Of a stretch of DNA of 64,000 nt, positions 7,420 through 58,605 are shown one piece after another. The DNA comes from a virus. Numbering within the stretch: position 1 is the stretch's first letter; every line of letters starts with the position of its first letter. The stretch is taken from the UHGV virus genome UHGV-0382128; one strand, written 5' to 3'. Made by a program: the position numbers and the translations under genes. The notes beneath the pieces were generated by a model, which ran no database searches, was not told the origin of the DNA, and saw only the letters and a list, made by a program, of their open reading frames with translations.

Positions 7420-7476
7420 GCAAAAAAAATAAGTTTACCTACCTCCGTCAAGGAGGTAGGTAGCTTTTATTTTTCT
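7420..7476. terminator. Bidirectional rho-independent terminator
   Basis: A-run 7422-7429, stem tacctacctcc / ggaggtaggta with loop gtcaa (7436-7462), T-run gcttttatttttc; lies between convergent genes. Confidence 0.8.
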
Positions 7477-8024
7477 TCTTGCGCCAGATGTTTACGGGCA
7501 GAAGAACGAATAATTAAGTTTTTCATCTGCATTAACAGCAGGAACGTAGAGAGTAAATCGAACGTGGTGGGTGGTGTGTTGGTGGTGTCGCTAGGATAAG
7601 CAACACGCCACAGTGTTAGTTCTGTGTCGCCATTTCCTTTTTCGTTACGTATAATTTCGTTGTTGTGCAAGCTAACCAATTCAGATTCTAACGCTTCTAA
7701 TACATCTTCACCGAACTCAATCCGTAAGAGTTGTTTGAAACGGATAACGTAACCGGCGACGACATTACCGACAGAACTGCTACGTATTTCGGTTAAGAAA
7801 CGCTGGTAGCCGTTGATAGTGTGTGGGATCGTTTCAGCAGGCCAGCCCGCGATGTGTGGAAACGCATCACCTAAAGTGGCTTGCATAGACAACGTAAAGA
7901 TTTCACCGATCTGGTTAAGATGACTAATGACTTCTGTACGGTTCATGACGTTAGGAAGCGGTACGGGCCGTTCTGTATTCGGCTTTTCTTGAGCCATGGG
8001 ATAACCATCGAATAAGTTTTGCAT
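7467..8024 (-). CDS. Hypothetical protein (~185 aa; start revised to the second Met)
   Basis: Track ORF 7467..8063; the first ATG lies inside the upstream terminator hairpin, while the ATG at 8024..8022 is preceded by SD aggaga (MQNLFDGYPMAQEK...). Confidence 0.5.
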   Translation of the reverse strand: MQNLFDGYPMAQEKPNTERPVPLPNVMNRTEVISHLNQIGEIFTLSMQATLGDAFPHIAGWPAETIPHTINGYQRFLTEIRSSSVGNVVAGYVIRFKQLLRIEFGEDVLEALESELVSLHNNEIIRNEKGNGDTELTLWRVAYPSDTTNTPPTTFDLLSTFLLLMQMKNLIIRSSARKHLAQEEK

Positions 8025-8043
8025 TGTTTTATCTCCTGAAATC

Positions 8044-8088
8044 AAAAAAAATAAGGCGGTCATAAGACCGCCCTAGATTTTATTTTCT
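8044..8088. terminator. Rho-independent terminator (hairpin ggcggtc/gaccgcc flanked by A-run and T-run)
   Basis: A8 run 8044-8051, 7-bp GC stem 8055-8072, then ctagattttattttc. Confidence 0.65.
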
Positions 8089-8190
8089 CCGCCGGTGGCT
8101 CAGGTAAACCAGACCATCAATCGGTCTAGGTGGCCCTGGCTTCCGAGAAAGAGGTTGTTGCCATTTCGTAGGATTGATTTTCTCTTCAGG

Positions 8191-8216
8191 AACAAAAGCC
8201 CGATATAGTCGGGCTC
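8191..8216 (-). terminator. Probable minus-strand terminator hairpin
   Basis: Stem agcccga / tcgggct with A-rich 5' flank on plus (T-run on minus), immediately after the stop of the 8234..8716 gene. Confidence 0.45.
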
Positions 8217-8233
8217 CTGAAATAATACCGATC

Positions 8234-8716
8234 TTATTCGTCTTCTTCGTCATCGCCCGCCATCATCGCATCGGCAAACACTTTGCGCATTTTCCCTTCC
8301 AGCTCTTTTGACTTAGGTACACCGTAACCAAAGCCGATAGAAGCTGCCCATTCAGACGCCCCTACTGTTTCCCCAGTTGGACGTGAGAACACCGTAGAGA
8401 ACGACGCGTTACCAATATTCGTGGTAAGGTCCAGTGCGACCAGTTCGTCGTCTGCTTTCGCTTTCTCAACGATAAGTTCTGACGCAACCTTACCGTAGAC
8501 TTCCAGGAAGTTTGCATCGTGTTGGCGAACCGCATCCGCATCCTGTAGCGTCAGACGATAATCGGTGTCGTTCACTTTGATGACCGGAAGTGATTCTTCG
8601 TAGATTTTGATTAACGGGTCTGCGTTAAGTACCGCGCTTTCGTCCAGAGTCATTGCCGGAGTTTCCAGCGCATCGATCATTGCAGCCAGTTCTTTAGTAG
8701 ACATTACTTGTGCCAT
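8234..8716 (-). CDS. Hypothetical protein with acidic C-terminal tail (160 aa)
   Basis: ORF ending ...MMAGDDEEDE; function unknown. Confidence 0.55.
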   Translation of the reverse strand: MAQVMSTKELAAMIDALETPAMTLDESAVLNADPLIKIYEESLPVIKVNDTDYRLTLQDADAVRQHDANFLEVYGKVASELIVEKAKADDELVALDLTTNIGNASFSTVFSRPTGETVGASEWAASIGFGYGVPKSKELEGKMRKVFADAMMAGDDEEDE

Positions 8717-8735
8717 TTGATTTATTCCTTAAGGT

Positions 8736-9407
8736 TTACTGTTGTTGAAGACGGCTTTCTAAGCCAGTGATGATTTCGTCGGTGAAATACGCTAAGTCGA
8801 GCATTTCAACGTACTCTTGGCGTTCCAAGATTTCTTTCGCAAACAATGCGTTATACCAATCAGGAACACGAGATTTACCATTACGACCGAACTTATTTTG
8901 CACGTGACTGATTGCATGGAATTTTGAATCAGTAACAGATTTTCCATGGTCTCGTGCGTATAAGTAAGAGCGGTGCATGTAATTTTTAACTTCCTCGACG
9001 GTAGGGATGCCGCGATCGGCGGCAGCGACAATTTCAGAAACAATGGAATTATAACCACCTTTGTGGGAACTCCGATGTTCTAATACTGCATACGCTACCT
9101 CGGTCACATCGTCGGAACTAAGTTTAAAACGCCGCTTGAGTATAGGTGCAGAATCAAGCACGTAATTGAATGCCTTGATGTGGTGTGAAGCACGGTCAGC
9201 AGGTGTGGAGAAAATATCGTGCGCAGCCACGGCAACCAGAACATTCTTTAGGTGTTGCGTTTCATTCAACAGGTAAGCGATACGAACAGCGTTCGACTTC
9301 ACAGAAAGAATGTGGTCTAGTCGATGCGCGCTATCGGTATAGCGATAGAAATCGCGGAAGTGGCTAAGTACACGTTCCCAGAATTTATTAATTTCAGTAG
9401 CTTCCAT
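8736..9407 (-). CDS. Putative HD-domain phosphohydrolase (223 aa)
   Basis: His/Asp metal-binding pattern ...LVAVAAHDIFS...SHH...AVLEHR... typical of the HD superfamily; assignment by motif only. Confidence 0.45.
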   Translation of the reverse strand: MEATEINKFWERVLSHFRDFYRYTDSAHRLDHILSVKSNAVRIAYLLNETQHLKNVLVAVAAHDIFSTPADRASHHIKAFNYVLDSAPILKRRFKLSSDDVTEVAYAVLEHRSSHKGGYNSIVSEIVAAADRGIPTVEEVKNYMHRSYLYARDHGKSVTDSKFHAISHVQNKFGRNGKSRVPDWYNALFAKEILERQEYVEMLDLAYFTDEIITGLESRLQQQ

Positions 9408-9428
9408 TGATAATACCTTACAAGTCGA

Positions 9429-9818: not shown

Positions 9819-9819
9819 C

Positions 9820-10209: not shown

Positions 10210-10299
10210 TTTTAATACTCCTTTAGGTTAAACAGTCGAATAGCGTGTAATTCTACAACGCTCACCTAAGTAAAATATATCTAAGATAATTTTCAATAG

Positions 10300-10345
10300 G
10301 GTTAAAATATAAGTGGGCTAGTCTATTCGATGAATAGACTAGCCG
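10300..10345 (-). terminator. Long hairpin (12-13-bp stem) followed by an AT-rich tract; probable terminator
   Basis: ggctagtctattc-gat-gaatagactagcc at 10317-10344, directly after the stop of the 10353..10904 gene; adjacent AT-rich 10270-10315. Confidence 0.5.
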
Positions 10346-10352
10346 AAAGGTT

Positions 10353-10904: not shown

Positions 10905-10971
10905 TTTTGATTATCCTTTTTTGTAGAAATTCCTCCGACACAATAACGGTAGAAATCGTAAAAATAAAAAA

Positions 10972-11271: not shown

Positions 11272-11320
11272 GCTTCCCTCACAATCGACAAATTCGGGTT
11301 GCAGACCATGAACTGGGCGA

Positions 11321-15292: not shown

Positions 15293-15339
15293 TCTCTTCT
15301 CCGGAGTTTATCAGGGTGGGAGCGACCCACCCCTCGAGA

Positions 15340-18300
15340 TTATTTAAGTGTCGCGGGTAAATCAGGCACAGCTTCCCCATCGAGTATACGCCCGATGAGA
15401 ATCCCGGCTTGTTCACCTACAGCATTCGCGGTACCGATACGTTGGATTGAACCTACGATACGCGCATCGACAGAATCACGACCGAACAACACGTCCAGGT
15501 CATCACCATCCTCTGTTTTGTTGTCGCCGTACATGACTTCTTGTACGGTGGTTTTTAGCTGGTTAGCAATAACCATCTTATCCGCAGCGGCCATCTCAAC
15601 GTCGTGTGTAATAAAGAATCGAACACAAAGTGAGTTAAAGGCTAATGGTACACCTTCGACACGGTAGTCGCCGTTTACACTGCCTGAAACCGGATCACCT
15701 CGCCCGACTGCCAAAGCGGCTTTACGACGAATTCTGTCGTATTTACGCACCAGTTCAGCAAGGCTTGGTGTCATGTCTTCGGTTTCACCGTGATACACCA
15801 CTTCGATCTTATCCACGATACCACGTACCCCTGCACGAGGTGCGTACGAACTTAAACTTTGCAACGTTGCGGCTGCTTCCTGACTAAAGGCACTCATATC
15901 GCCTGTCAAGTCGTCAGTAAACGTGCATAGGATTGTATCGACGTCTACGTGGTCGCCCTCATTCACGATTTCCAAAAGCATCTGGTTGCTGTTAATCGTC
16001 ACTTCTTTCAGCTTTGTTACCTGCCCCACCATTTTCTTCGCGAACCGTTCAGAAATTGCGTTGGAGTCTTCGATAACTTCTTCAGCTTCTAATAAAGCAA
16101 CGGTAGCCAGCACCCCGTTTTTCCAGGAAACCTGAGTAGGATCGTAAATATCAGGTTCAAAGTGTTGCTCGTTGTACGTAATCACTGCTCCGGCCGGGAG
16201 CTTGTCACCGGCTTTCCAGCGTGTTACCAAGGTGTGCGGATAGAAGGTACCTTCGTGGGGGCCGAACCAGCGCCCTAGAGGAAAAGCTTCTTTACTTCCA
16301 TCTTCGTACGTAATTTCAATGTGGTCTTTCGACAGACCAGTAATCTTACCTGCTTTATCAATAACGCGTGCATGTTTCACCGAAGTACGGTGTGCGACGA
16401 ATTTCTCCTGTTCAGTACGATACGGGGTTGTGGTTGCCCCAATACAACTGGTGGCAGAACCTAACTGAATCCCAACGAAGTTTTGACGCTTTGCGTCGTC
16501 CATTAACGTATCTGGTACTAACCCGTCAATAAACGAAAGGGTGTCGCTTGGTTTCGGGGTTTTCTCTTCACGTTTAAATGTAGTACCGTCAACGGTGTCA
16601 AAACGTGGGTTATTGGTGACGAAAGCAGTAATACCTACGTCGCCGTTATCTACGGTGTTACCCGAGACTATCCCGATATCGCTGGGTTGGAACTCACGTG
16701 TGTGGTAGACCATCGTTTTACGATTACGACCACCTGTACCCCCCATCGTAATAACGTCTTTTTCTTTAATTGACTGGATAGGGTTAGCACCTGGTGCCAA
16801 AAGTACCGACGGGTCGGAGTTAATTGCACCCCAAACCATGTCTTGCGTCAGTTCGAACTTACGGTTACTGCCCGGTGCGTTATTGTAGTTACGCATCGCT
16901 CTGACCATCGCGGTATAGATGTGGTAGGCAATCCTCTGATTTCCTAAGAACATCATTTCATCGCCGTTAATCTCTGGTAAAGAGTGGTCAGTTTGTAACA
17001 GTTCGTTAGAACGTTCCAACAAGCCAATAAAGGTTTCCGGTTCACCCATTTTCCTGAGGATACGTGCGTGCATGTCGTCAACAAACGCGGACCGCATCTG
17101 TTTCAGCTCATTGATGTACCGTGGTGTTAGGCCATCTGCATCACGTAATAAGTTCAGGTAAATGTCTTCGCGGTCTGCTTCTGATTCAGTATAAGCAACC
17201 AGGTGTTTGAGATAGCGATCCAAACCATGCAGAATCATCTTCTGCTGATCGTTATCGCATGTAACTAAAAGTTTACAGTCTTGTAGTCGAATAATACTGT
17301 CGTAGGCATTCTTATCAACACGCTGCCCTGCGGGAACCAACTCGTACTGGATACCGAAATGTTTCAACATTCCCTGGAGTCCAAGGTAGAACGAGAAGAT
17401 AAAACCAAGCGACAAAGATTTACCCATCAAAGACAGCTCGGTCATTTCGCGAGGCACTTTCTGGTTATTAAAGCCCAGTACCTCTGCGATAGTTCCCACC
17501 GGCTCAACTTTGTTTCCGTTCACACCGTAAAGCATGGATTTGTCATCCATTGCCAGTATTGTTTCACTGCGCGGACGTTTCGCCACTGGCAAAAGTTTGG
17601 CAGCATCGGCGTCTCTGAGTTGTTCGTCGTTAAAGAAGTTAACGGCTTCTTTGTAGTCGAAGTTCCACATATAGCCATTCGCATTAAAGCTGGCAATACG
17701 ACGTGCAATCTCCGTATACTGACGAGGCAGATGTTGCGTAGGATCGAACACATTTGCTAAACGTGCATCGGTGACTTCGGTGTTTGTCGGGTCAACAGCG
17801 CGTGTGATAATCGCGTTGGTTAACCAACGACCGTAGTCGTTTGCGACCTTATCACTACGACGGACAAAGTTTTTACCGTATGCGGTAGTCAGTGCGACAG
17901 TATCCGGCGCAACCTTACGAATCGGTAAGTCCACACGTTGCCGACGCATGGTGTATTCGACACCATTAGCTACCCAAGTACCGTCCTCGGTCAAGCCTGG
18001 GATAGAGAAGCGAACGGTTGTTGGCTCACCACCGACTGGTTGAACACGTAAAGTGTGGTGCTCGATAGTCCCTGTAACAGAAACTTCTTTTTCCACCGTG
18101 TGATTGTGAATCGCCAGACCCAAACGTTGTGAGCTGGCGACCGCCGCCAGCACGTCCTTGGTCATCATGGTCTGGTTGTACTGTTTCATCATCTGGTCAG
18201 TGACGTTCTCGGCCCACCCTTCGTCGGTAACAAGTCGCTGAACCTTTTTCGGCTCGGCTTTAACGACGACATCTTTCTCGTGAACAGTAAGTGCTTCCCC

Positions 18301-19506
18301 GTAGGTTTCTTTCGGGTTATACGGGTTAGGCAGCTGAACGAAACGTTTAGACGATTCTGACAGGAACTGATATGCTTTAGAACTTAAGCGGCCCGCTTCA
18401 GCTAAGCGTTGTGCTTCTTGTTTAATAATTTCGTCATGCGGAATGACTTTCTCGACAACAATTGTCGTCGGTTTGACGTCTTCCTTCGGTTCTTCAATAA
18501 CAACGTCTTCTTTTTCATCGAAGGTGTTATCGGATTCGACCACAGCGTCATTAACAACGTCGTCATCATCGACAACATCAACGGTTTCTTCTTCGACGTC
18601 TTTAAGGAAAACACGTTCGTCGCCTTCAGGCGTTAGGAATTCCGCTTCGTACGCATTAGACGGCGCTTGTGTCATTACACGCACTAGCGTACGGTAGAAC
18701 ATCCTGGCCATTTGATCGTCACTTAAACGACCGCCGGAGGACTTACGCATTTTCTCTACAACACCCATGTTCATGGACGTAAAGCCCGTGTTGTGGGTGA
18801 AGATAAAGTTCATTCGTGACAGCTGAGTTAAATCCATTCCCGCGAATAAGGAATCGGATTGTTTTCCATAAGCCCAAGCAAACAACTCCAATAACCACAG
18901 CAAGTTGAAGTCCTGGAACTTCTCAATCTTGCTTTTAACACGGTCGTTATAGGTTGTTTGAAACTTCTGGAACGAGGGTAATGTCGAACCCAGTTCAATA
19001 ACGAAATAGTTCTGACGCATGTATTCTTGCGTGTCGTATTTGAACTGGTTAATCATCAACAGTTGGATGTTACGCAATCTATCGTACCAGGCTAACTGGG
19101 TATCAGGATAGTAGTAGTGCGATAGCATCGGCGTGTAGTTCTCGATCAGGAGAACTTTTAAGTCTTTGCGAACCAGTTCGTCTGAGGTAAGACGACGCAT
19201 CGGGCGGTTTGCACGGTGGTAGGCAAAGATAGCACGTTCTTGCCCCTGAACAGGTTTGTTGCGCGGATGTCCGCTAATACCGTCTTCCGGTAATTTAAAG
19301 TGGTGACGAACCTGTGCAGGTTTTTCTAACGGTTGAATAATCTCGAGTGTTGCAGGCGGCGCTAACACCACCTGGTCGAGATCAATGACATGGAGTACAG
19401 AACCTCGCGGTATCTGTAGCTTCTCGAGCGGGATAATCCTCGGATTACCAAACTCGTCGGTTTTACGCACCGAGAAGCGTTGGTTAAACTGTTTAATGAG
19501 CAGCAT
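15340..19506 (-). CDS. Multisubunit RNA polymerase beta-like subunit, N-terminal fragment (1388 aa)
   Basis: Near residues ~940-1045: GGTGGRNRKTMVYHTREFQPSDIGIVSGNTVDNGDVGI and TTPYR, resembling the bacterial beta region [36 protein letters not shown]...ETPYR. Protein ends before the beta C-terminal GDKxxxRHGNKG region, and lies 10 nt downstream of the beta-prime-like gene. Confidence 0.55.
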   Translation of the reverse strand: MLLIKQFNQRFSVRKTDEFGNPRIIPLEKLQIPRGSVLHVIDLDQVVLAPPATLEIIQPLEKPAQVRHHFKLPEDGISGHPRNKPVQGQERAIFAYHRANRPMRRLTSDELVRKDLKVLLIENYTPMLSHYYYPDTQLAWYDRLRNIQLLMINQFKYDTQEYMRQNYFVIELGSTLPSFQKFQTTYNDRVKSKIEKFQDFNLLWLLELFAWAYGKQSDSLFAGMDLTQLSRMNFIFTHNTGFTSMNMGVVEKMRKSSGGRLSDDQMARMFYRTLVRVMTQAPSNAYEAEFLTPEGDERVFLKDVEEETVDVVDDDDVVNDAVVESDNTFDEKEDVVIEEPKEDVKPTTIVVEKVIPHDEIIKQEAQRLAEAGRLSSKAYQFLSESSKRFVQLPNPYNPKETYGEALTVHEKDVVVKAEPKKVQRLVTDEGWAENVTDQMMKQYNQTMMTKDVLAAVASSQRLGLAIHNHTVEKEVSVTGTIEHHTLRVQPVGGEPTTVRFSIPGLTEDGTWVANGVEYTMRRQRVDLPIRKVAPDTVALTTAYGKNFVRRSDKVANDYGRWLTNAIITRAVDPTNTEVTDARLANVFDPTQHLPRQYTEIARRIASFNANGYMWNFDYKEAVNFFNDEQLRDADAAKLLPVAKRPRSETILAMDDKSMLYGVNGNKVEPVGTIAEVLGFNNQKVPREMTELSLMGKSLSLGFIFSFYLGLQGMLKHFGIQYELVPAGQRVDKNAYDSIIRLQDCKLLVTCDNDQQKMILHGLDRYLKHLVAYTESEADREDIYLNLLRDADGLTPRYINELKQMRSAFVDDMHARILRKMGEPETFIGLLERSNELLQTDHSLPEINGDEMMFLGNQRIAYHIYTAMVRAMRNYNNAPGSNRKFELTQDMVWGAINSDPSVLLAPGANPIQSIKEKDVITMGGTGGRNRKTMVYHTREFQPSDIGIVSGNTVDNGDVGITAFVTNNPRFDTVDGTTFKREEKTPKPSDTLSFIDGLVPDTLMDDAKRQNFVGIQLGSATSCIGATTTPYRTEQEKFVAHRTSVKHARVIDKAGKITGLSKDHIEITYEDGSKEAFPLGRWFGPHEGTFYPHTLVTRWKAGDKLPAGAVITYNEQHFEPDIYDPTQVSWKNGVLATVALLEAEEVIEDSNAISERFAKKMVGQVTKLKEVTINSNQMLLEIVNEGDHVDVDTILCTFTDDLTGDMSAFSQEAAATLQSLSSYAPRAGVRGIVDKIEVVYHGETEDMTPSLAELVRKYDRIRRKAALAVGRGDPVSGSVNGDYRVEGVPLAFNSLCVRFFITHDVEMAAADKMVIANQLKTTVQEVMYGDNKTEDGDDLDVLFGRDSVDARIVGSIQRIGTANAVGEQAGILIGRILDGEAVPDLPATLK

Positions 19507-19515
19507 TGCTTAGCC

Positions 19516-21135
19516 TTATGGGTTCTTTAATAACGCTTGCGTTGCACGTTTAATCACGTTGTTGATAGGATTGATTTTAAAGTTCCCATCAGAATCGAAC
19601 CAGTAGTTTTTCGAGTGTATCCAGTTCCGGTTTTCCTCGAGCGCTTCCTGGGACATAGGCGCGTTAAACGACCCGGTATCGCCATCGTAGTCACCCCCTA
19701 ACCCACCTAGGCGTGAAGGGTGTGGTGCCATAGACTCAACGAAGGTAGGAACCGACCGGTCAGGGTAGCTGATAGCCCCTCGGGGTTTTTCAGTTTCCCA
19801 GTCATCTTCCAGTTCTTTTAAATATAAAGATGACGTGGTGGTCTCCAATCTTATGGTCGATGAATACGTCGAGCCTCGGCCTGTAACGGGATAACGTGTA
19901 ACGAAACCGAAATAATCGTTCCAAAGTTCGTAGCCCGACAAATAAAGCAATTCGACGAGTGTCATACCGTGAACGAATTTTCGGTCAAACGTTTTAGGAA
20001 GTTCTTCAATATCGTAGAACACCTTAAAATGTTTGGTGTCTTGGTAAACCAACGCAACGTAGTGGGTGTCGTCCAACATAATCGGTTGATGGCGAAGCTC
20101 GCGAGCTTCCATTCGGTTGATTAAGGATTCAATCCCATCGTCGGTGGTAAAGGTGTCGTATACACGACCACCTACTTCCAAGAATTCACGTTTAAGGGTT
20201 TTGGTGTTTACGCCGTAAAGGTTGCCATCGCCAGCACGGATGTTACCGAGGTAACGTTCGCGTATCTGGTACTGCGCAACGGGGAGTAATGCTTTTAAAC
20301 CCTGGTATAAACCAATTTTGGTGTCGGTGGGACGAATAGCGTCTTCACGACCCATGCATTTAGACCCCGTCGAGAACGAGGACAGTACGTTACGTGTCCC
20401 GTTCATTAACTTACGAGACGTCACTTTACGACGTTGGAAACCCCCTTTACCGTCCTGGATGTTAAAGAAATACATCCAGATATCATTGAAGGTTTGTTGA
20501 AGTTTCCAGCGTACGGGGTTAGTTAACTCGACACGGGTTGCCCGGTCAGGGATCGCCCTGGCGAGAGATACCAACCGACGATACATCCCGCCGATTTCTT
20601 CTTCTTGCTCTCTACCATCTTGTCGAATTACTAAATCGCGTAAACCCGCGGGTAACACGAGAACGTATCGACTAAGACTAACGGGACGGAATTTCAAAAA
20701 GAAATCCACGGTTTCGTCACGTTGTAGAGACTCGTTACGCTTAGGTTTTAAATCGTTATAGTGACTGAGGAAGAAGTTAAAACCGGTATCTGCGCCTGGG
20801 TCTCCCGGCAAGGCCGGTTCGAAATCTTTTTCTTTTTCGCTCCAGGTTGCGTAGCGTTTTCCAGAACAAATTTCTTCGTAGAGTTGTTTGAGTTGGAATA
20901 ACGCCAAACACACTGTCGGCGAAATGATATCGAGCTTAATATCGATATAAGAGAATGTAGAGTCTCGCGCTTCACTACCCGTGAGTCCAAAAATCTCTGT
21001 AGAGTAAAGACCTTCGGGGTGAAAGTTTTTTGTTAACCCCTGGAAAGTATCCGTGGTCGTGACGGGTCGTAATCGCGACACAAGAGACTTGTTTACATTG
21101 AGCAGATAAAAGTCAACCCAATTAAGTTTATTCAC
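19516..21135 (-). CDS. Multisubunit RNA polymerase beta-prime-like subunit, N-terminal fragment (539 aa)
   Basis: GKGGFQRRKVTSRKLMNGTRNV resembles beta-prime [22 protein letters not shown]; C-terminal GGDYDGDTGS matches the NADFDGD Mg-binding motif; ORF ends ~50 aa after it. Confidence 0.65.
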   Translation of the reverse strand: MNKLNWVDFYLLNVNKSLVSRLRPVTTTDTFQGLTKNFHPEGLYSTEIFGLTGSEARDSTFSYIDIKLDIISPTVCLALFQLKQLYEEICSGKRYATWSEKEKDFEPALPGDPGADTGFNFFLSHYNDLKPKRNESLQRDETVDFFLKFRPVSLSRYVLVLPAGLRDLVIRQDGREQEEEIGGMYRRLVSLARAIPDRATRVELTNPVRWKLQQTFNDIWMYFFNIQDGKGGFQRRKVTSRKLMNGTRNVLSSFSTGSKCMGREDAIRPTDTKIGLYQGLKALLPVAQYQIRERYLGNIRAGDGNLYGVNTKTLKREFLEVGGRVYDTFTTDDGIESLINRMEARELRHQPIMLDDTHYVALVYQDTKHFKVFYDIEELPKTFDRKFVHGMTLVELLYLSGYELWNDYFGFVTRYPVTGRGSTYSSTIRLETTTSSLYLKELEDDWETEKPRGAISYPDRSVPTFVESMAPHPSRLGGLGGDYDGDTGSFNAPMSQEALEENRNWIHSKNYWFDSDGNFKINPINNVIKRATQALLKNP

Positions 21136-28289: not shown

Positions 28290-28335
28290 TAACAACAGGG
28301 GGTAGTTTCCTACCCCCGTTTTTTAGAGGTAAAAC

Positions 28336-31087: not shown

Positions 31088-31152
31088 AAAAAGAAAAAAA
31101 ATAAGAAAGTTAACCTACCTCCGAAGGGAGGTAGGTGCTTTTATTTATTTCG
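31088..31152. terminator. Bidirectional rho-independent terminator
   Basis: A-run, stem cctacctcc / ggaggtagg with loop gaag (31114-31135), then tgcttttatttatttc; between convergent genes. Confidence 0.8.
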
Positions 31153-36544: not shown

Positions 36545-36585
36545 AAAAAATGAAAATACCCTACTCCTGTCTAGGAGTAGGGTAG
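36545..36585 (-). terminator. Rho-independent terminator (CCCTACTCC family)
   Basis: Stem accctactcc / ggagtagggt, loop tgtcta; T-run on minus strand, then SD and the next start. Confidence 0.7.
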
Positions 36586-42909: not shown

Positions 42910-42952
42910 TCGGGTAGGGTTTACCCTACCCGATCCTATTTATTTCTTTTTC
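42910..42952. other. Perfect hairpin (cgggtagggt/accctacccg) overlapping the 3' end of the recombinase-like gene; T-run on the plus side only
   Basis: Stem 42910-42920 / 42923-42933, then tcctatttatttctttttcg on plus; on the coding (minus) side it is followed by an SD, not a T-run. Confidence 0.5.
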
Positions 42953-45605: not shown

Positions 45606-45655
45606 AAAAGTAAAGCTACCCCTAGACCACACGGTCTAGGGGTAAACTATTTATT
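45606..45655. terminator. Bidirectional rho-independent terminator
   Basis: Stem cccctagacc / ggtctagggg (45619-45642) flanked by A-run and T-rich tract; between convergent genes. Confidence 0.75.
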
Positions 45656-46550: not shown

Positions 46551-46575
46551 TTTAATGCTCCTAAACACTTTTAGC

Positions 46576-47520: not shown

Positions 47521-47560
47521 GGTTAAAAAAGATAGAGGGACGCTTTAGCGTCCCTCTAAG
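47521..47560 (-). terminator. Rho-independent terminator
   Basis: Stem agagggacgc / gcgtccctct, loop ttta, T-run on minus strand, then SD aggaga + ATG. Confidence 0.7.
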
Positions 47561-51080: not shown

Positions 51081-52594
51081 TCAAGCTCCTTATCCGTCAA
51101 TATTCGTTTGTTTGAATAATAGCCGCACCACAAACCATGATATTTTTCCCCGATATAAACCAACGCGTATTCGATATACTGCCGTTCTGGACGACGTACA
51201 GCCACGTAAAACCGCCCTTCCGGTTCTTTGATACGGTTGATTTCCGTACGCGTCGGTATGTCGATACCTCGAGTAAGGATAGCTTTAACCTTGTTTTTAC
51301 TACCAGGGATCTTGATGGTTACGTCAAAACCTTTATCTACGTTACGATAAATGTCTTTCTTCGGCTTACCTTTCTCATCGTAAAGTACGTCAGTAATGTC
51401 ATTCAACACTACTGAGTTTTTCCCTTCCATGGCATCGCGTAACCAACCTGCAAGCTCATCACGAATCGCAATACAACGATAAGATAATAGCGCAGGACGA
51501 AGAATTCGTGTAATCGAAAGATCTTCAAACATCCACAGGTTTTTGTCTTCACTAAAATGCATCCGATCGATAGGAATGCCGTTAGCAGCGGCTTCTGCGA
51601 ACTTCTTGCGCTTTACGAATAAGTTAAAAACAACGGCGATTGGATCAAATTGACGTAAACGGGGCACCCCTTCCCACGCTTTCGCAGAATGGGTATTTAC
51701 CAACTCGTATACGTTATCCCACGGTTCTTTGGTAAACATTACGCAGAATTGTGCATCTGGAATGTACTTACCAACGAAGACGATATCATCCTTCTGTTTT
51801 GCGTGGTTTCCACCGAACATGTAATAAAGTTTATTACCGTTAACTGTAACAGTGGGGTGAGGCTCGTTCACCATCGGGTAACAGAACTTCGTAACACAGA
51901 TATCGGGAAAAGTGGACAAATTGACACCCTCACCAACAACTTCCGGTTGCTGTTCTTCCTCAGGCAGTTCGTCTTTTGACCAATACGGTGTATAGTCTAA
52001 CCCCTCCCCTCGGGCAGAGATAATTGAGCCTTTCCGCGCTAACTCGTCTGCGCGTTCGTTTCCATAACGTCCAGAGTGGCCTTTAATTTTAAGGACACGA
52101 ACACCTTTCCCTTCTTTCTTTAAGCGCTGTTTAACCACCCACATCCGTTGGATTAATTCCAGATTCGCAATAGGTGTACCGTCCGCACGACGCCAACCAC
52201 GTGCTGCCCAACCATCAATCCAGTCGTTATACGTGTTGACAACGTAAGATGCGTCGATATAGATAACGTAGTTTTTGGCAACGAAGGGGGCGTGTTCGAA
52301 GACGGTCAGGAAAGCCACGAGTTCTGCAACGTCGGAGTGTGACATTTTTGGTACAGGAACAACTCCGTCAATAAACTCCACGGTTTCTGGTAAAGGCGGA
52401 AGTTTTTCATCTTTGTTTATCTGGCGGTATCCTGACGTCGTAATCCCCTCGGGAATAGTGGGATGGCGGTAAACCCGACCATCCTCAATCGCTTCACGAT
52501 TAAATAAGTATCCATGAATCCCCGCCCCTGTACCGAGCGGGGAGGTCAAATGGCTACCGTCCGTGTAAATTACTGCAACATCAACGTTCTTCAT
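51074..52594 (-). CDS. RNase H (RNase HI-like) domain fused to a ~310-aa C-terminal domain of unknown function (506 aa)
   Basis: N-terminus carries the full RNase HI pattern: IYTDGS, AELVAF, IYIDASYVVN...W..GW, IKGHSGRYGNERADELARKG (cf. E. coli RnhA FTDGS...E...STDSQYV...VKGHAGHPENERCDELAR). Confidence 0.8.
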   Translation of the reverse strand: MKNVDVAVIYTDGSHLTSPLGTGAGIHGYLFNREAIEDGRVYRHPTIPEGITTSGYRQINKDEKLPPLPETVEFIDGVVPVPKMSHSDVAELVAFLTVFEHAPFVAKNYVIYIDASYVVNTYNDWIDGWAARGWRRADGTPIANLELIQRMWVVKQRLKKEGKGVRVLKIKGHSGRYGNERADELARKGSIISARGEGLDYTPYWSKDELPEEEQQPEVVGEGVNLSTFPDICVTKFCYPMVNEPHPTVTVNGNKLYYMFGGNHAKQKDDIVFVGKYIPDAQFCVMFTKEPWDNVYELVNTHSAKAWEGVPRLRQFDPIAVVFNLFVKRKKFAEAAANGIPIDRMHFSEDKNLWMFEDLSITRILRPALLSYRCIAIRDELAGWLRDAMEGKNSVVLNDITDVLYDEKGKPKKDIYRNVDKGFDVTIKIPGSKNKVKAILTRGIDIPTRTEINRIKEPEGRFYVAVRRPERQYIEYALVYIGEKYHGLWCGYYSNKRILTDKELEC

Positions 52595-53371: not shown

Positions 53372-53418
53372 CGTTAAAAAGAAAGGCCCTCCTGTACCTC
53401 GAAGGGTACAGGAGGGAG
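53372..53418 (-). terminator. Rho-independent terminator
   Basis: Stem ccctcctgtaccc / gggtacaggaggg, loop tcgaa, T-run on minus, then SD aggaga + ATG. Confidence 0.7.
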
Positions 53419-53420
53419 TG

Positions 53421-54383: not shown

Positions 54384-54408
54384 TGCTCACCTCGGAGTAT
54401 TTTTAATT

Positions 54409-55782: not shown

Positions 55783-55785
55783 TGA

Positions 55786-56409
55786 ATGGCTACGCGTTTA
55801 CCACTCCAGGTACCAGTCAACACCACGGGACTGTTTAAAGTAAAAACACCATTTACTTTGGCCGAGACCGTCATTTATACGGTAGAAGCGTCACGTACCT
55901 TCCCAGATTTAGTACGTCAGAATATTGACGTTTATAACTCGTATTACCAGCCAGTAGGGCTAGGACGTGAAGAATATTTAGCAGATGCGAATGTTAGCGC
56001 GTCGATTCTGACATTTAAATCTCGTGATGGTCAAGTTGTATACATACCTGACACCTACCTGGAATCATACCCAGGTTTATCCGGGATCACGTATCAACGA
56101 AATGTGTTAGTGGTAGATTTGGCACTGGTACCGGATTACGTGAAAGTGTCGTCTATAACAAAAGACGTTTCAGATATTCTCACGCATACACTAGGGATTG
56201 AGCCGAAAGTTGAAATTACAACGCTCGAGTATGAGGGGAAGGTAACGGAGGAACAACACTTGCAGATGGAAGCGGCACGAAAAAATAAAATTCGTGAATC
56301 TATTCCATTAGGTGAGAAAGTTGCTGCGTTGACAGAAGAGAACAAAAAATTAAAAGAGTTAAACAACCAAATGTTAGAGATTCTTAAAGCTAACGGGTTA
56401 GTTAACTAA
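55786..56409 (+). CDS. Hypothetical protein (207 aa) with C-terminal coiled-coil-like segment
   Basis: ORF 3 nt after the upstream gene; ends at a terminator. Confidence 0.5.
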   Translation: MATRLPLQVPVNTTGLFKVKTPFTLAETVIYTVEASRTFPDLVRQNIDVYNSYYQPVGLGREEYLADANVSASILTFKSRDGQVVYIPDTYLESYPGLSGITYQRNVLVVDLALVPDYVKVSSITKDVSDILTHTLGIEPKVEITTLEYEGKVTEEQHLQMEAARKNKIRESIPLGEKVAALTEENKKLKELNNQMLEILKANGLVN

Positions 56410-56455
56410 AAAAGATTACCCTACTCCTTCGGGAGTAGGGTAGCTTTTATTTTAA
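56410..56455. terminator. Bidirectional rho-independent terminator (CCCTACTCC family)
   Basis: Stem taccctactcc / ggagtagggta, loop ttcg, then gcttttatttt; between convergent genes. Confidence 0.8.
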
Positions 56456-57000
56456 ATGTCAACTTCTAGTTTACGGTAATCGATGACACCTTGAGCAATC
56501 ATAGCAGCAACATCGTTCCAAGTACGAAAAATGAAGTAAACTGTGTCTCCGTTTAAAAAGATGTTAGATTCTTTATCCGGGAAATCGTCTTCACTGAGGT
56601 AGTAGTAGGGTTTGTCGAATGGGAAGTCGCGCTCATCAGAGGAACCAAGTACCGCATAACGATTGCCACAATCAAACAGAATCTTCCAACCAGACATTTC
56701 ACTATTAGCGTCAATACGATCGACGATTTCAACGGTAATAGGAGAATGATCAAGAAAACTGATTGTAATATCTCCGTTATAACGCTTGAATCGCCAAATA
56801 TCTGTAGGTACGATTTCAGATGCCGCTATAAGGGAATAAAGTTGTGTTGATGTGATCTTTTTGTAAACGTTAGTTCCATCTCCAAAATGGTTATATAAGA
56901 AATTAGCCAGGAAATTTATATCCTTTAAACGTGTGCGGAAAACAGAACCACGACGAATACCGTAAGCCAGATGAGTTAAATATTCAGATGATGGAAACAT
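56452..57000 (-). CDS. Paralog family C, member 1 (182 aa)
   Basis: N-terminus MFPSSEYLTHLAYGIRRGSVF...FLANFLYNHFGDGT resembles that of the upstream gene (MTFPSEVIYTLANIFRRSHNF...VTADFLFNYLIGTD). Confidence 0.5.
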   Translation of the reverse strand: MFPSSEYLTHLAYGIRRGSVFRTRLKDINFLANFLYNHFGDGTNVYKKITSTQLYSLIAASEIVPTDIWRFKRYNGDITISFLDHSPITVEIVDRIDANSEMSGWKILFDCGNRYAVLGSSDERDFPFDKPYYYLSEDDFPDKESNIFLNGDTVYFIFRTWNDVAAMIAQGVIDYRKLEVDI

Positions 57001-57015
57001 TTTAATACTCCTAAG

Positions 57016-57054
57016 ATGGAAAAAGAATTAACCCTACTCCCGGAGGAGTAGGGG
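57016..57054 (-). terminator. Rho-independent terminator (CCCTACTCC family)
   Basis: Stem ccctactcc / ggagtaggg, loop cgga, T-run on minus, then SD aggag. Confidence 0.7.
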
Positions 57055-57061
57055 ACTTAAA

Positions 57062-58006
57062 TTATTTTTTGGTTTGGCCCAGCTTTTCAAGAACCAGTTC
57101 ACGAATGTACTTTTGAGTACGTTTCTTCGGCGGTAAAGCCATAAGGGTGTCAACGATTTCCTGGCCGCTGATAACCTTGCTGACGAGTTGCTGAACTTGG
57201 AAGAGTTCTGCTTCTTCGTCGCTAATTTCGTTAGCTTGGTCTTTCTGACACAACGCTTCTACCAGATCAGCTACGGATATTTCATTTTCGTCACCGGGGA
57301 AATCCAGGTTTAACGATTCGAAAACATCACGTTTAACGAGTACAGATTTCAGATCATCGTAGTTTTCACAAACGGCGACTTCTGTACCAGGTACCGTCGG
57401 TTCATTGTACTCAGCAAACAAATCTTCCATTACTTTCTGATCGTGCTCTACTTTCAAAGCGTGGAAGGTGTTGGAAGCCTTGGTTAAGACGTAACCAATT
57501 TGCTGCCAGCTACTCAGAATGAAGCAAAGCGTTTTTCCAGTTAGACCGATATTGCCCTGACGTGCGTCAAAAAAGATTTCTTCGGTGCGAGAAATCTGAC
57601 CCAGTTCGAAAAAGGTTTCTTTTTTGGCCGCGACGACTTCATACCGATTCTTACCCTGTTCTACAACAATTAACCAGTTACCAAGAATTTCGTGTTGGTA
57701 GTTTGATAGGGAGAGAGACTCGTTACCCACGAGTGGTTTAATGTCAATGGACGCCCGGCGCATACCCATTGAGAAGTTGAACTTAACCCCATTGTTATAC
57801 GCTGAGGCGTACTCGATCGGGATAATTTCTGAGACACGTTCAATATCCATAATTGTTTCCTGCGTAACACATGCAGGATCGGTACCAATTAGGTAATTAA
57901 ACAGAAAGTCGGCTGTAACGTCTGCCGATTTCCGAAAGATTGGGAAATTATGGCTGCGGCGGAAAATATTAGCCAGTGTATAGATTACTTCAGATGGAAA
58001 AGTCAT
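57062..58006 (-). CDS. Paralog family C, member 2 (314 aa) with acidic C-terminal extension
   Basis: See family C member 1; extra ~130 aa C-terminal region. Confidence 0.5.
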   Translation of the reverse strand: MTFPSEVIYTLANIFRRSHNFPIFRKSADVTADFLFNYLIGTDPACVTQETIMDIERVSEIIPIEYASAYNNGVKFNFSMGMRRASIDIKPLVGNESLSLSNYQHEILGNWLIVVEQGKNRYEVVAAKKETFFELGQISRTEEIFFDARQGNIGLTGKTLCFILSSWQQIGYVLTKASNTFHALKVEHDQKVMEDLFAEYNEPTVPGTEVAVCENYDDLKSVLVKRDVFESLNLDFPGDENEISVADLVEALCQKDQANEISDEEAELFQVQQLVSKVISGQEIVDTLMALPPKKRTQKYIRELVLEKLGQTKK

Positions 58007-58059
58007 TTTAATAGTCCTCTTTTAGGTTTGTTCAAATCAACTAAGGGTTATGTAAAAAG

Positions 58060-58539
58060 TTAAAATAAAGGCAAGTTACGCCATTGTCCTACCGAGTAAA
58101 AAGCTTTTGGATGTTTACGGATATACGCTTTCGCTTCTTCTGGCAACCAACGGTCACCTACCAGTTTTTGTTGTGCAACAATTACTGCCATCAACAAATA
58201 CGGGTTTTTCGCACCGGGAAACTTTGCATTGGTTTCTAGCGCAATATCCAACATTGACGACCAGCCCAGTAATTTATGTTGCGCCGGTAAACGTTCTTCA
58301 ATATACATCAGCCACTTCATGATTTGTTTAGGCTTATACGGACAGGTATAATTCGCCCAACAGACCATGACGAACTTAATAGCCTTCGCAATCACCCATA
58401 CAGGGACAGTCACGAAAAGGCAGAAAATAGCCAACTGCGAGGCGGGCGCTTCGACAAAAGTAACCGCTACAAGAACCATACACAGTTCAAGTACCACAAA
58501 CCAAAAACGTGTCGGATAACGCCAAATGAATTTTATCAT
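58060..58539 (-). CDS. Membrane protein with two or three N-terminal TM helices (159 aa); holin-like candidate
   Basis: Hydrophobic FWFVVLELCMVLVAVTFV and LAIFCLFVTVPVWVIAKAIKFVMV; two genes upstream of the endolysin-like SLT gene. Confidence 0.4.
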   Translation of the reverse strand: MIKFIWRYPTRFWFVVLELCMVLVAVTFVEAPASQLAIFCLFVTVPVWVIAKAIKFVMVCWANYTCPYKPKQIMKWLMYIEERLPAQHKLLGWSSMLDIALETNAKFPGAKNPYLLMAVIVAQQKLVGDRWLPEEAKAYIRKHPKAFYSVGQWRNLPLF

Positions 58540-58547
58540 AACTCTGC

Positions 58548-58590
58548 TCCTTTAGGGAATGAAAATAAAAGTACCCCTTACTCCGTATAG
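58548..58590 (-). terminator. Rho-independent terminator
   Basis: Stem accccttac / gtaaggggt (~11 bp), T-run on minus, then SD aaggag. Confidence 0.7.
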
Positions 58591-58605
58591 GGTAAGGGGT
58601 AGAGG

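What the first reader, a model, noticed from the sequence alone, without database searches (positions are those of the whole stretch)
7420..58600. Recurring CCCTACTCC/GGAGTAGGG hairpin terminator family defining a modular gene architecture
At least eight intergenic hairpins share a CC(C)TAC(C/T)(T)CC core stem: near 7436, 31114, 36558, 42910, 45619, 56418, 57032 and 58563, with variants near 47534 and 53387. Each has A/T runs on one or both sides and is usually followed by a strong SD and ATG on the minus strand. Several sit between convergent genes and look bidirectional. Conservation of the stem sequence, not just the structure, suggests a shared recognition element (RNAP termination signal, RNase processing site or protein-binding site). 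The hairpin at 42910-42933 has its T-run on the strand opposite the coding strand and overlaps a gene's 3' end.
Basis: seen in the sequence. Interest (0 to 1): 0.55.

Follow-up and report, generated by a model that had tools for sequence, protein, structure and literature searches.

The report
Jumbo phage terminators sharing one stem
These are most likely the transcription stop signals of a giant phiKZ-type phage: very stable RNA hairpins followed by a U-run, many built on one preferred stem sequence. The same trait is already documented for phiKZ, so the finding is real but largely ordinary.

Summary
All ten hairpins exist and are intergenic. The one cited "near 58563" is actually at 58572-58601. 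Five share an identical core (CCTACCTCC at 7436 and 31113; CCCTACTCC at 36557, 56417 and 57032). 58572 is a bulged variant, and 45617 is a diverged orthologue of canonical copies in relatives. 47533 and 53387 have unrelated stems, and 42910 has the opposite arm polarity. The window comes from a phiKZ-type jumbo phage that encodes its own multisubunit RNA polymerase. It is related to the Erwinia Huxley/phiEaH2 and Salmonella SPN3US phages. The same stems recur clade-wide, mostly in ~220-250 kb phage genomes.

Several results point to RNA-level function. Unidirectional copies read UUCG on the T-run strand 26 times and CGAA 0 times. Wobble pairs fall only on that strand (6:0). Orthologous stems evolve by compensatory changes yet keep C on the 5' arm (101:7). 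The clade consensus, (A)CCCYACTCC-UUCG-GGAGTRGGGT-YTTTTATTTT, parallels the experimentally mapped phiKZ terminator motif.

Best reading: intrinsic terminators, bidirectional between convergent genes. A dedicated recognition factor is neither shown nor needed. "Modular architecture" holds only as transcription-unit punctuation. This is a new member of a known kind and of modest interest.

The parts
7436..7462 (.). Core family member. TACCTACCTCC-GTCAA-GGAGGTAGGTA, between convergent genes 6544-7419(+) and the minus-strand gene ending at 7467. A-run upstream and CTTTTATTTT downstream on both strands, so a bidirectional terminator. The whole element spans about 7422-7474.
   Evidence: -24.8 and -22.9 kcal/mol on the two strands. 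The orthologous site is conserved across 17 genomes with compensatory changes.
31113..31136 (.). Core family member. ACCTACCTCC-GAAG-GGAGGTAGGT, between convergent genes 30524-31087(+) and 31145-32002(-). Bidirectional terminator.
   Evidence: The stem is invariant and the loop flips between GAAA and TTTC in close relatives. It shares 51 nt with the 7436 element.
36557..36584 (-). Core family member. TACCCTACTCC(T)-loop-(A)GGAGTAGGGTA, then TTTTCATTTTTT on the minus strand only. Lies between co-directional genes 36589-37248(-) and 36157-36525(-). The SD and ATG follow about 31 nt downstream.
   Evidence: Stem invariant and loop variable or flipped in relatives.
45617..45644 (.). Diverged family member. 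TACCCCTAGACC-ACAC-GGTCTAGGGGTA, between convergent genes 44850-45605(+) and 45651-46646(-). Bidirectional terminator.
   Evidence: The orthologous site in relatives carries CCCTACTCC, CTACCTACTCC or CCCACTCC stems.
56417..56442 (.). Core family member and the closest to the clade consensus. TACCCTACTCC-TTCG-GGAGTAGGGTA with A-run and GCTTTTATTTT, between convergent genes 55786-56409(+) and 56452-57000(-). Bidirectional terminator.
   Evidence: The loop flips between TTCG and CGAA in relatives. The 45-nt element finds about 240 kb Salmonella and Erwinia jumbo phages almost exclusively.
57032..57053 (-). Core family member. CCCTACTCC-CGGA-GGAGTAGGG. The sense (minus-strand) loop is UCCG, followed by TTAATTCTTTTT. 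Lies between co-directional genes 57062-58006(-) and 56452-57000(-).
   Evidence: and (loop flip in L039).
58572..58601 (-). Near-variant member with a bulged T. TACCCCTTAC(T)CC-GTATA-GGGTAAGGGGTA, then CTTTTATTTTCATT on the minus strand. Lies between genes 58606-59115(-) and 58060-58539(-).
   Evidence: Relatives have CCCCTAATCC/GGATTAGGGG at this site, a compensatory change.
47533..47558 (-). Terminator-like hairpin with an unrelated stem, not a member of the stem family. TAGAGGGACGC-TAAA-GCGTCCCTCTA (minus strand), then TCTTTTTT. Sits at a gene-content breakpoint.
   Evidence: Close relatives carry ACCCTAGC-TTCG-GCTAGGGT here and lack gene 47561-48046.
53387..53416 (-). Terminator-like hairpin with a C-rich 5' arm but a different sequence. 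CCCTCCTGTACC-CTTCGA-GGTACAGGAGGG (minus strand), then CCTTTCTTTTT.
   Evidence: In relative L025 a mismatch is a G.U pair only on the minus (coding) strand.
42910..42933 (-). A different class of hairpin with the G-rich arm first: CGGGTAGGG-TAAA-CCCTACCCG. There is no T-run on the coding strand, and the SD follows 2 nt after the stem. Probably a weak or decayed terminator, or an mRNA-stability or regulatory hairpin.
   Evidence: Orthologues are GGCGGGG/CCCGCC hairpins, with a sense T-run in SPN3US and phiEaH2 but none in Huxley or the window's clade.
8052..8075 (-). Further terminator-like hairpin outside the stem family. TAGGGCGGTC-TTAT-GACCGCCTTA, then TTTTTTTT on the minus strand, with one G.U pair on that strand only.
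28298..28317 (+). Further terminator-like hairpin with the G-rich arm first. GGGGGTAG-TTTC-CTACCCCC, then GTTTTTT, after the 2374-aa tail-fibre-like gene.
10316..10344 (-). 13-bp perfect hairpin with a mixed stem and a weak T-run. Its structure is conserved by two compensatory double substitutions in relatives.
15340..21135 (-). Context: two phage multisubunit RNA polymerase beta-like subunit genes (15340-19506 and 19516-21135). They mark this as a phiKZ-type phage that transcribes with its own polymerases.
   Evidence: PHROGs E=0 and 7e-234. Syntenic with Huxley gp252 and gp253.

Best explanation
The recurring hairpins are intrinsic (hairpin plus U-tract) transcription terminators of a phiKZ-type jumbo phage. 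The RNA forms a perfect 9-12 bp stem, usually capped by a 4-nt loop, followed by a YTTTTATTTT tail where the transcript ends. That last step is inferred. Where genes converge, an A-run upstream makes the element symmetric, so it can stop transcription from both directions. Between co-directional genes only the coding strand has the T-run, and the next gene's ribosome-binding site follows within 12-55 nt.

The shared stem is the local form of a clade-wide consensus: (A)CC(C)YACTCC-UUCG-GGAGTRGG(G)T. What is conserved is the pairing, a C-rich/G-poor 5' arm, a loop-proximal ACTCC/GGAGT and the TTAT-containing tail. This is the enterobacterial counterpart of the terminator motif mapped experimentally in phiKZ and 201phi2-1.

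The near-identity of copies is best explained by stabilising selection on a fast-folding, very stable RNA hairpin, probably helped by exchange between the ~50-nt copies. Both parts of that explanation are inferred. No dedicated recognition factor is needed.
For: Shown here:
- Every family member is intergenic and lies immediately 3' of a stop codon.
- T-runs match the direction of the upstream gene. Four copies sit at convergent junctions with T-runs on both strands.
- The stems are very stable.
- In unidirectional T-run hairpins across the clade, the loop reads TTCG on the T-run strand 26 times and CGAA 0 times (p=3e-8).
- In stems with a single mismatch, the wobble falls on the T-run strand 6 times and on the other strand 0 times.
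- At an orthologous site in 17 genomes all stem positions stay paired through several pair types. C(5')-G(3') pairs outnumber G-C pairs 101 to 7 (tallied from the per-position pair counts). A second site behaves the same way.
- In an unbiased census of the complete Huxley genome, T-run hairpins split 25 C-first, 6 G-first and 12 mixed. Nine of the 25 C-first arms end in ACTCC, against 0.25 expected from composition (0 of 20,000 shuffles).
- The clade position table gives CCCYACTCC, a TTCG loop and a tail containing TTAT in 86 of 161 cases.
- The first 50 kb of phiKZ shows the same signature: 10 C-first against 1 G-first, TTCG loops and TTAT tails.
- The window encodes phage RNAP beta-like subunits.

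From the literature:
- 61 phiKZ terminators with mapped 3' ends share BCCYCCCCHWWDGGGRRGGBYTTAT (PMC10914365).
- 201phi2-1 has a closely resembling motif, and eight of its terminators work in vivo in uninfected host cells (PMC11512511).
Against: There is no transcript 3'-end data for this phage or its enterobacterial relatives.

Between co-directional genes the next SD follows within 12-55 nt and no promoter was identified. Either read-through or an unrecognised phage promoter must therefore be assumed.

Composition and polarity alone do not explain the specific ACTCC/CTAC preference. Some sequence-specific constraint, or copying between sites, remains unexplained.

The host-type control is small and noisy: 100 kb of E. 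coli and 50 kb of T4.
Confidence: 0.8

Rival explanations
1. The conserved stem sequence is a recognition element. A phage RNA polymerase subunit, or a phage protein, reads the (C)CCTACTCC/GGAGTAGG(G) hairpin specifically, for example as a polymerase-specific termination signal, a 3'-end protection tag or an mRNA-handling tag. The hairpin would then be more than a generic intrinsic terminator.
For: Loop-proximal ACTCC and CTAC are far commoner than composition predicts. The same 9-mers recur at non-orthologous sites in genomes that are otherwise only about 70% identical in their most conserved genes. Stems drift but stay near one consensus at two deep orthologous sites. The C-first polarity is seen in chimalliviruses and not in the small E. 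coli and T4 controls: 739:558 and 173:97 against 415:406 and 58:64.
Against: Orthologous stems do change sequence freely as long as pairing and polarity are kept: CCTACCTCC, CCTCTCTCC, CCCAACTCC, CCGACCCC. About half of the terminator-like hairpins in the window and in Huxley lack the motif. 201phi2-1 terminators of the same type terminate in uninfected host cells. No candidate binding protein was identified.
Confidence: 0.15
2. The sequence identity reflects history rather than function. The ~50-nt terminator cassette spreads or is homogenised within the genome by recombination or gene conversion between copies, or by moving together with genes, as with the PeSL cassettes of T4-type phages. 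Any stable hairpin would do.
For: Non-orthologous copies share the whole ~45-50-nt element, including the A-run and tail. Some loci match the window only over that element, at 88-93% identity. Genomes have their own favourite bidirectional variant: CTACCTACTCC three times in Huxley and TACCTACCTCC twice in the window. One 'gene plus hairpin' unit is swapped between close relatives, with homology resuming exactly at the T-run. The phage encodes UvsX-like and SbcC-like recombination proteins.
Against: Orthologous copies keep their own variant across 80-98% identical relatives rather than being homogenised. Only 1 of about 6 gene-content breakpoints abuts a hairpin. No sigma-70-type promoter is consistently attached to the hairpins. 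History alone does not explain the 101:7 polarity bias or the 26:0 loop orientation. This can be a contributing process rather than a full alternative.
Confidence: 0.3
3. The hairpins are mainly RNA processing or stability elements, acting as 3' exonuclease barriers or endonuclease sites that segment polycistronic transcripts, rather than sites where the polymerase stops.
For: Between co-directional genes the next SD follows 12-55 nt after the hairpin with no recognisable promoter, which suggests read-through transcripts. 42910 and 15314-15332 are conserved hairpins with no sense T-run. The phage encodes a ribonuclease-like protein at 51074-52594.
Against: Family members are tightly coupled to T-runs on the strand of the upstream gene. 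Stems of 9-13 bp are too short for RNase III (established knowledge of that enzyme, not tested here). In phiKZ the equivalent motif coincides with mapped termination sites that show a read-depth drop. Stabilising the 3' end is a normal secondary role of terminators, not an alternative to termination.
Confidence: 0.1
4. The palindromes act at the DNA level, either as binding sites for a dimeric DNA-binding protein or as REP/MITE-like mobile repeats.
For: They are perfect inverted repeats with a conserved sequence, present in multiple copies per genome. Loops are frequently inverted between relatives, which is a DNA-level event.
Against: Loop length varies from 3 to 8 nt. Arms co-vary to keep pairing rather than sequence. 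Loop orientation (26:0) and wobble pairs (6:0) follow the transcribed strand. Similarity ends at about 50 nt, with no terminal repeats, clustering or extension beyond the A- and T-runs. At every orthologous site examined in close relatives the hairpin was present.
Confidence: 0.03

Closest known systems
phiKZ conserved intrinsic-terminator motif (5'-BCCYCCCCHWWDGGGRRGGBYTTATKYYGT-3'; Putzeys et al. 2024, PMC10914365) and motif A of 201phi2-1 (PMC11512511)
   Same: A phage with its own multisubunit RNA polymerases. Dozens of copies per genome. A C-rich/G-poor 5' arm, a 4-nt loop (TTCG in my census of phiKZ) and a G-rich 3' arm, followed by a T-tract containing TTAT. Roughly half of all terminators carry the motif, and some are bidirectional between convergent genes.
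   Different: The stem consensus is (C)CCTACTCC or CCTACCTCC rather than CCYCCCC, and stems are longer (9-12 bp against about 7). An upstream A-run is common here (96 of 161) and absent in the phiKZ sample (0 of 14). Nothing has been mapped experimentally in this clade.
Canonical bacterial intrinsic (Rho-independent) terminators
   Same: A GC-rich hairpin immediately followed by a U-tract, 3' of genes. An A-tract gives bidirectionality.
   Different: In the small E. coli sample the stems show no arm polarity (415 against 406 pairs). Among the short, clean hairpins listed, the loops look mostly GNRA-type (GAAA, GGAA, GCAA) by my reading rather than by a count, and UUCG is not among the commonest loops. 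Strong hairpins are far sparser: 4 per 50 kb in E. coli and 1 per 50 kb in T4, against 14 per 64 kb here.
PeSLs, the composite promoter-early/stem-loop cassettes of T4-type phages (PMC2839356, PMC4122927)
   Same: A short, conserved, multi-copy terminator-containing intergenic motif. One case here where a gene plus its hairpin is exchanged, with the junction at the hairpin's T-run.
   Different: No conserved early promoter is attached. Most gene-content breakpoints are not at hairpins. The copies sit throughout conserved core regions rather than being confined to hyperplastic regions.
REP/BIME elements and MITE-like palindromic repeats of bacterial genomes
   Same: Multi-copy intergenic imperfect or perfect palindromes, some of which double as terminators or mRNA stabilisers.
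   Different: Here the elements are strictly coupled to T-runs and gene 3' ends. There are no clusters, no extension beyond about 50 nt and no presence/absence polymorphism at the orthologous sites checked. Whether a RAYT-type transposase is encoded was not examined.
Hairpin-loop inversions and quasipalindrome template switching (known from chloroplast intergenic hairpins and E. coli mutagenesis; recalled from general knowledge, not checked in the literature here)
   Same: The loop flips to its exact reverse complement while the arms stay identical: TTCG/CGAA, GAAA/TTTC, CGGA/TCCG, GAT/ATC, TAAT/ATTA between relatives that are 88-98% identical.
   Different: This is a mutational side-effect of the perfect inverted repeat, not a function. 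At unidirectional terminators selection apparently keeps UUCG on the sense strand.

Membership tests
Intrinsic (factor-independent) transcription terminator | Stable GC-containing RNA stem-loop (about 5-14 bp, short loop) | tested here: met
   Perfect 9-12 bp stems, at -18 to -25 kcal/mol, z -4 to -7.
Intrinsic (factor-independent) transcription terminator | U-tract immediately 3' of the stem on the transcribed strand | tested here: met
   At least 6 T in 8 within 0-4 nt of the stem on the strand of the upstream gene for all seven family members, and on both strands at the four convergent junctions.
Intrinsic (factor-independent) transcription terminator | Located at the 3' end of a gene or transcription unit | tested here: met
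   All lie in intergenic gaps of 42-66 nt directly after stop codons.
Intrinsic (factor-independent) transcription terminator | Selection acts on the RNA structure (covariation, strand-specific wobble) | tested here: met
   Compensatory changes at two deep orthologous sites and in close relatives. Wobble on the T-run strand 6:0. UUCG orientation 26:0.
Intrinsic (factor-independent) transcription terminator | Transcript 3' ends map to the U-tract; termination in vitro or in reporters | not testable with these tools
   No transcript-end data found for this clade.
phiKZ-type conserved terminator motif | Phage encodes its own multisubunit RNA polymerases | tested here: met
   RNAP beta-like subunits at 15340-19506 and 19516-21135. 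Huxley, which is syntenic, has several RNAP beta-subunit genes.
phiKZ-type conserved terminator motif | C-rich/G-poor 5' arm and G-rich 3' arm | tested here: met
   All seven family members. Huxley 25 against 6. phiKZ sample 10 against 1. Orthologous-site pairs 101:7.
phiKZ-type conserved terminator motif | T-tract containing TTAT directly after the stem | tested here: met
   GCTTTTATTT(T) at 7436, 31113 and 56417; CTTTTATTTT at 58572. TTAT present in 86 of 161 tails in the clade and 10 of 14 in phiKZ.
phiKZ-type conserved terminator motif | Match to the published stem consensus BCCYCCCC...GGGRRGG | tested here: not met
   Stems are (C)CCTACTCC or CCTACCTCC, with A and T interrupting the C-run. 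The design is the same but the sequence differs. It therefore works like the phiKZ motif but is a clade-specific variant.
PeSL (promoter-early stem-loop) recombination cassette | Stem-loop fused to a conserved early promoter | tested here: not met
   No consistent sigma-70-like hexamers next to the hairpins. Promoter-like hits are below the shuffle expectation. Phage-specific promoters could not be assessed.
PeSL (promoter-early stem-loop) recombination cassette | Indels and gene replacements between close relatives bounded by the motif | tested here: inconclusive
   One clear case at 47528-47558. About five other variable segments are not bounded by hairpins.
REP/MITE-like mobile palindrome | Presence/absence polymorphism, terminal repeats or target duplications, similarity beyond the palindrome | tested here: not met
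   Present at every orthologous site checked. Similarity is limited to about 50 nt or less.
Curated RNA families (Rfam 15) | Match at gathering threshold | tested here: not met
   0 matches in the window.

The most novel reading that the evidence does not exclude
The C-first, UUCG-capped, TTAT-tailed hairpin is a termination or 3'-end code specific to nucleus-forming jumbo phages. It would be conserved from Pseudomonas phiKZ to the enterobacterial SPN3US and Huxley-type phages. The loop-proximal ACUCC/GGAGU would be read sequence-specifically, either by the phage's non-canonical RNA polymerases or by a phage protein that marks, protects or routes phage mRNAs.
Probability: 0.12. Interest if true: 0.6.

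Novelty: new member of a known kind. Interest (0 to 1): 0.3.

Why it matters
The work gives a ready-made, clade-wide terminator consensus for the enterobacterial phiKZ-type jumbo phages (the SPN3US, phiEaH2, Huxley and Asesino groups and this metagenomic lineage). I found no transcript-end map for any of them. The consensus is (A)CCCYACTCC-UUCG-GGAGTRGGGT-YTTTTATTTT.

It can be used to delimit transcription units, to correct gene starts (for example the ORF called at 7467-8063) and to supply compact, strong, often bidirectional terminators for synthetic biology.

The conserved arm polarity and the ACTCC preference pose a modest open question: what do these phages' unusual RNA polymerases, or co-transcriptional folding, demand of a terminator? 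The basic phenomenon is already published for phiKZ and 201phi2-1, so this is an extension and not a discovery.

Tried and rejected
- **'ACCCTAAAGGAG' downstream of hairpins.** I suspected a promoter or shared leader. It is the extended Shine-Dalgarno sequence (TAAGGAG) found before many genes, whether or not a hairpin is present.
- **Sigma-70 promoters attached to the hairpins, as in PeSLs.** The scans give fewer hits than shuffles and nothing consistent next to the hairpins.
- **Rfam.** No family matches. There are no tRNAs in the window.
- **T4 and E. coli as polarity controls at the stringent hairpin threshold.** Too few hairpins: 1 and 4 per 50 kb. I replaced this with a looser energy-based finder, which is noisy with many coding-sequence false positives, so its result is only indicative.
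- **MAFFT alignment of the orthologous terminator region.** It did not keep the stems in register, so pairs were counted after anchoring each sequence on its own loop.
- **Mobile element or longer repeat unit.** Similarity between copies ends at about 50 nt.
- **Literature searches for this motif in the SPN3US, Erwinia or Chimalliviridae phages.** Nothing specific was found. The library covers open-access papers only, so a prior description elsewhere cannot be excluded.
- **Phage promoter consensus from the 201phi2-1 paper.** The motifs are given only as figures, so they could not be used.

Full report
**What the window is.** The 64-kb window is densely coding; only 2,433 nt lie in intergenic gaps of 25 nt or more. 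It encodes a tail sheath, a 2,374-aa tail-fibre-like protein, a UvsX-like recombinase, an SbcC-like protein, a ribonuclease-like protein and two multisubunit RNA polymerase beta-like subunits at 15340-21135. At the DNA level it matches known phages only weakly: about 73-74% identity over the UvsX-like region to Erwinia phages Asesino and phiEaH2 and to Salmonella phages of the SPN3US type. It has close uncultivated relatives of 220-225 kb in IMG/VR. It is syntenic with Erwinia phage Huxley, whose whole genome I fetched. It is therefore a phiKZ-type jumbo phage that carries its own RNA polymerases.

**Checking the observation.** All ten hairpins exist, fold very stably and are intergenic. The one 'near 58563' is at 58572-58601. 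Five carry an exact shared core: CCTACCTCC at 7436 and 31113, and CCCTACTCC at 36557, 56417 and 57032. 58572 is a bulged near-variant. The exact cores are strongly over-represented: 7 against 0.83 expected and 4 against 0.17 expected, with no shuffle reaching the observed count. 47533 and 53387 have unrelated stems. 42910 has the G-rich arm first, so the CCCTAC string sits on the other arm. 45617 does not match the pattern, but it is the orthologue of canonical copies in relatives. Four hairpins (7436, 31113, 45617, 56417) lie between convergent genes and have T-runs on both strands. The others have a T-run only on the coding (minus) strand, followed by an SD and ATG.

**The motif is a property of a whole phage clade.** Exact searches for the two palindromes in 2.9 million viral contigs returned 71 and 55 loci. 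Reading the contig lengths in the table, I count 42 of the 71 in contigs of 218-249 kb. A 45-nt query (56408-56452) against 50,697 phage records hit 72 records. Nearly all of the records listed are ~240 kb Salmonella, Erwinia, Escherichia or Proteus jumbo phages, with up to 9 places per genome. Some loci match the window only over the ~50-nt element. Within the window, non-orthologous copies share no more than about 50 nt, namely the A-run, stem-loop and T-run. The repeat unit is therefore the element itself and not a longer mobile sequence.

**Evidence that the RNA hairpin is what is selected.**
- In close relatives the motif stems are invariant while loops vary. Non-motif hairpins (10316, 58572, 53387) change by compensatory substitutions, and one mismatch is a G.U pair only on the coding strand.
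- At the terminator after the tail-tube-like gene (6544-7419), 17 genomes with 42-100% protein identity keep the layout A-run, stem, loop, stem, CTTTTATTTT. The stems differ between them: CCTACCTCC, CCTCACTCC, CCTCTCTCC, CCCAACTCC, CCCACTCC, CCCCACTC, CCGACCCC.
- At that site every stem position stays paired through several pair types, and C(5')-G(3') pairs outnumber G-C pairs 101 to 7 (tallied). The junction orthologous to 45617 behaves the same way.
- Among stems with a single mismatch and a T-run on one side only, the mismatch is a wobble on the T-run strand 6 times and on the other strand 0 times.
- Among unidirectional T-run hairpins across the clade, the loop reads TTCG on the T-run strand 26 times and CGAA 0 times (p=3e-8).

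These strand-specific signatures, together with variable loop length, argue against a DNA-level binding site.

**An unbiased census.** In the complete Huxley genome, hairpins with a perfect stem of at least 8 bp and a T-run split into 25 with a C-rich/G-poor 5' arm, 6 of the opposite polarity and 12 mixed. Nine of the 25 C-first arms end in ACTCC and 13 contain CTAC, against 0.25 and 2.6 expected from arm composition (0 of 20,000 shuffles). Canonical copies follow the major head protein gene and sit at convergent junctions. A position table from 161 instances not selected on the motif gives (A/T)CCC(C/T)ACTCC, a TTCG loop and a YTTTT(A/T)TTTT tail with TTAT in 53%.

**Comparison with what is known.** For phiKZ, long-read transcript mapping found 133 termination sites. 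Sixty-one of them share 5'-BCCYCCCCHWWDGGGRRGGBYTTATKYYGT-3', described as a conserved stem-loop followed by TTAT (PMC10914365). For 201phi2-1, 132 terminators were mapped. The main motif (n=59) resembles phiKZ's, and eight terminators worked in uninfected host cells (PMC11512511). My own census of the first 50 kb of phiKZ gives 10 C-first hairpins against 1 G-first, with TTCG loops and TTAT tails. The window's family therefore has the same design with a different stem consensus, longer stems and frequent upstream A-runs.

In small controls, E. coli (100 kb) and T4 (50 kb) show no arm polarity (415:406 and 58:64 stem pairs, against 739:558 in Huxley and 173:97 in phiKZ) and far fewer strong hairpins. 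UUCG is not among the commonest E. coli loops, and the cleaner E. coli hairpins look mostly GNRA-type by my reading. The loose finder used for this comparison is noisy. I found no paper describing this motif in the enterobacterial clade.

**How it most likely works.** The polymerase transcribes the C-rich arm first and then the G-rich arm, which snaps onto it around a UUCG-type loop. The U-rich hybrid that follows releases the transcript. This sequence of events is inferred from the anatomy and from the phiKZ data. It has not been shown for this phage. Symmetric copies stop transcription from both directions between convergent genes.

Two further inferences follow. A G-poor leading arm may avoid mis-pairing before the trailing arm appears. 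The high density of strong terminators may reflect transcription that is independent of the host apparatus, as described for phiKZ.

The ACTCC/CTAC preference is not explained by composition. It may reflect a real sequence optimum, exchange between the ~50-nt copies, or both. Genome-specific favourite variants hint at exchange: CTACCTACTCC three times in Huxley and TACCTACCTCC twice here.

**'Modular architecture'.** The hairpins punctuate runs of one to several genes. Comparison with close relatives shows one clear case where the exchanged unit is a gene plus its 3' hairpin. The window has an extra paralogous 161-aa gene (47561-48046) followed by hairpin 47533. Relatives have ACCCTAGC-TTCG-GCTAGGGT at that position, and homology resumes exactly at the T-run. 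About five other variable segments are not bounded by hairpins. There is thus no general PeSL-like role (PMC4122927).

**The odd one at 42910.** Its orthologues throughout the clade are G-first hairpins (GGCGGGG/CCCGCC). SPN3US and phiEaH2 have a sense T-run there, but Huxley and the window's clade do not. The antisense 'T-run' is the complement of the conserved C-terminal Lys codons and stop of the UvsX-like gene. It belongs to a second class of hairpin, and the CCCTAC resemblance is not family membership.

**Verdict.** The terminator interpretation is well supported by comparative evidence and by a published precedent. A dedicated recognition element is possible but unproven. This is a new clade-specific member of a known kind of element, of modest interest.

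Noticed in passing
window 56428-56431, 31123-31126, 57041-57044, 10329-10331, 42920-42923, versus loci L018, L048, L103, L039, L087, L149, L153: Between relatives that are 88-98% identical, the hairpin loop is often the exact reverse complement while both arms stay identical: TTCG/CGAA, GAAA/TTTC, CGGA/TCCG, GAT/ATC, TAAT/ATTA. This looks like recurrent loop 'flip-flop' inversion through the perfect inverted repeat. At unidirectional terminators the sense strand nevertheless reads UUCG 26:0.
   Followed up: partly
window 15314-15332 (minus strand), and Huxley 217318-217340: A G-first hairpin with no T-run lies directly after the RNAP beta-like gene and before the next SD: GGGTGGG-TCGCT-CCCACCC, then TGATAAACTCCGGAG. 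In Huxley the stem has changed compensatorily, but the loop TCGCT and the downstream AAACTCCGGAG are conserved. With 42910 it suggests a second, non-terminator class of conserved hairpin, possibly regulatory or for processing.
   Followed up: partly
window 47561-48046 and 48076-48561: Two tandem paralogous 161-aa genes. Close relatives have a different number or version of these genes, making this a local copy-number and replacement hot spot with one edge exactly at the T-run of hairpin 47533.
   Followed up: partly
window 7467-8063 (minus strand): The mechanical ORF start (ATG at 8063-8061) lies inside the loop of hairpin 8052-8075. A better start, AGGAG followed by ATG near 8019, comes after the hairpin's T-run, so the gene is probably about 15 codons shorter.
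   Followed up: no
window 40816-41280 (+) and 41234-41956 (-): These apparent convergent ORFs overlap by 47 nt with no hairpin between them. If the plus-strand ORF is real, its transcript would run antisense through the neighbouring genes. The next plus-strand T-run hairpin is 42910.
   Followed up: no
window 42940-42952 and orthologues in L147-L161: The UvsX-like protein ends in a conserved Lys-rich tail (T-K-K-K-stop) across the clade. This creates an A-run in front of the downstream hairpin and accounts for the 'antisense T-run'.
   Followed up: yes
whole window; Huxley L162-L166; phiKZ L167; E. coli L168 and L170; T4 L169: Strong perfect hairpins with T-runs are much denser in the RNAP-encoding jumbo phages than in E. 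coli or T4: 14 per 64 kb, 46 per 241 kb and 14 per 50 kb, against 4 per 50 kb and 1 per 50 kb.
   Followed up: partly
window 62073-63965 (minus strand): An SbcC-like protein is encoded in a genome full of short perfect palindromes. The SbcD-like partner is annotated in Huxley (gp44). The palindromes are probably too short to be substrates, but the co-occurrence is worth noting.
   Followed up: no
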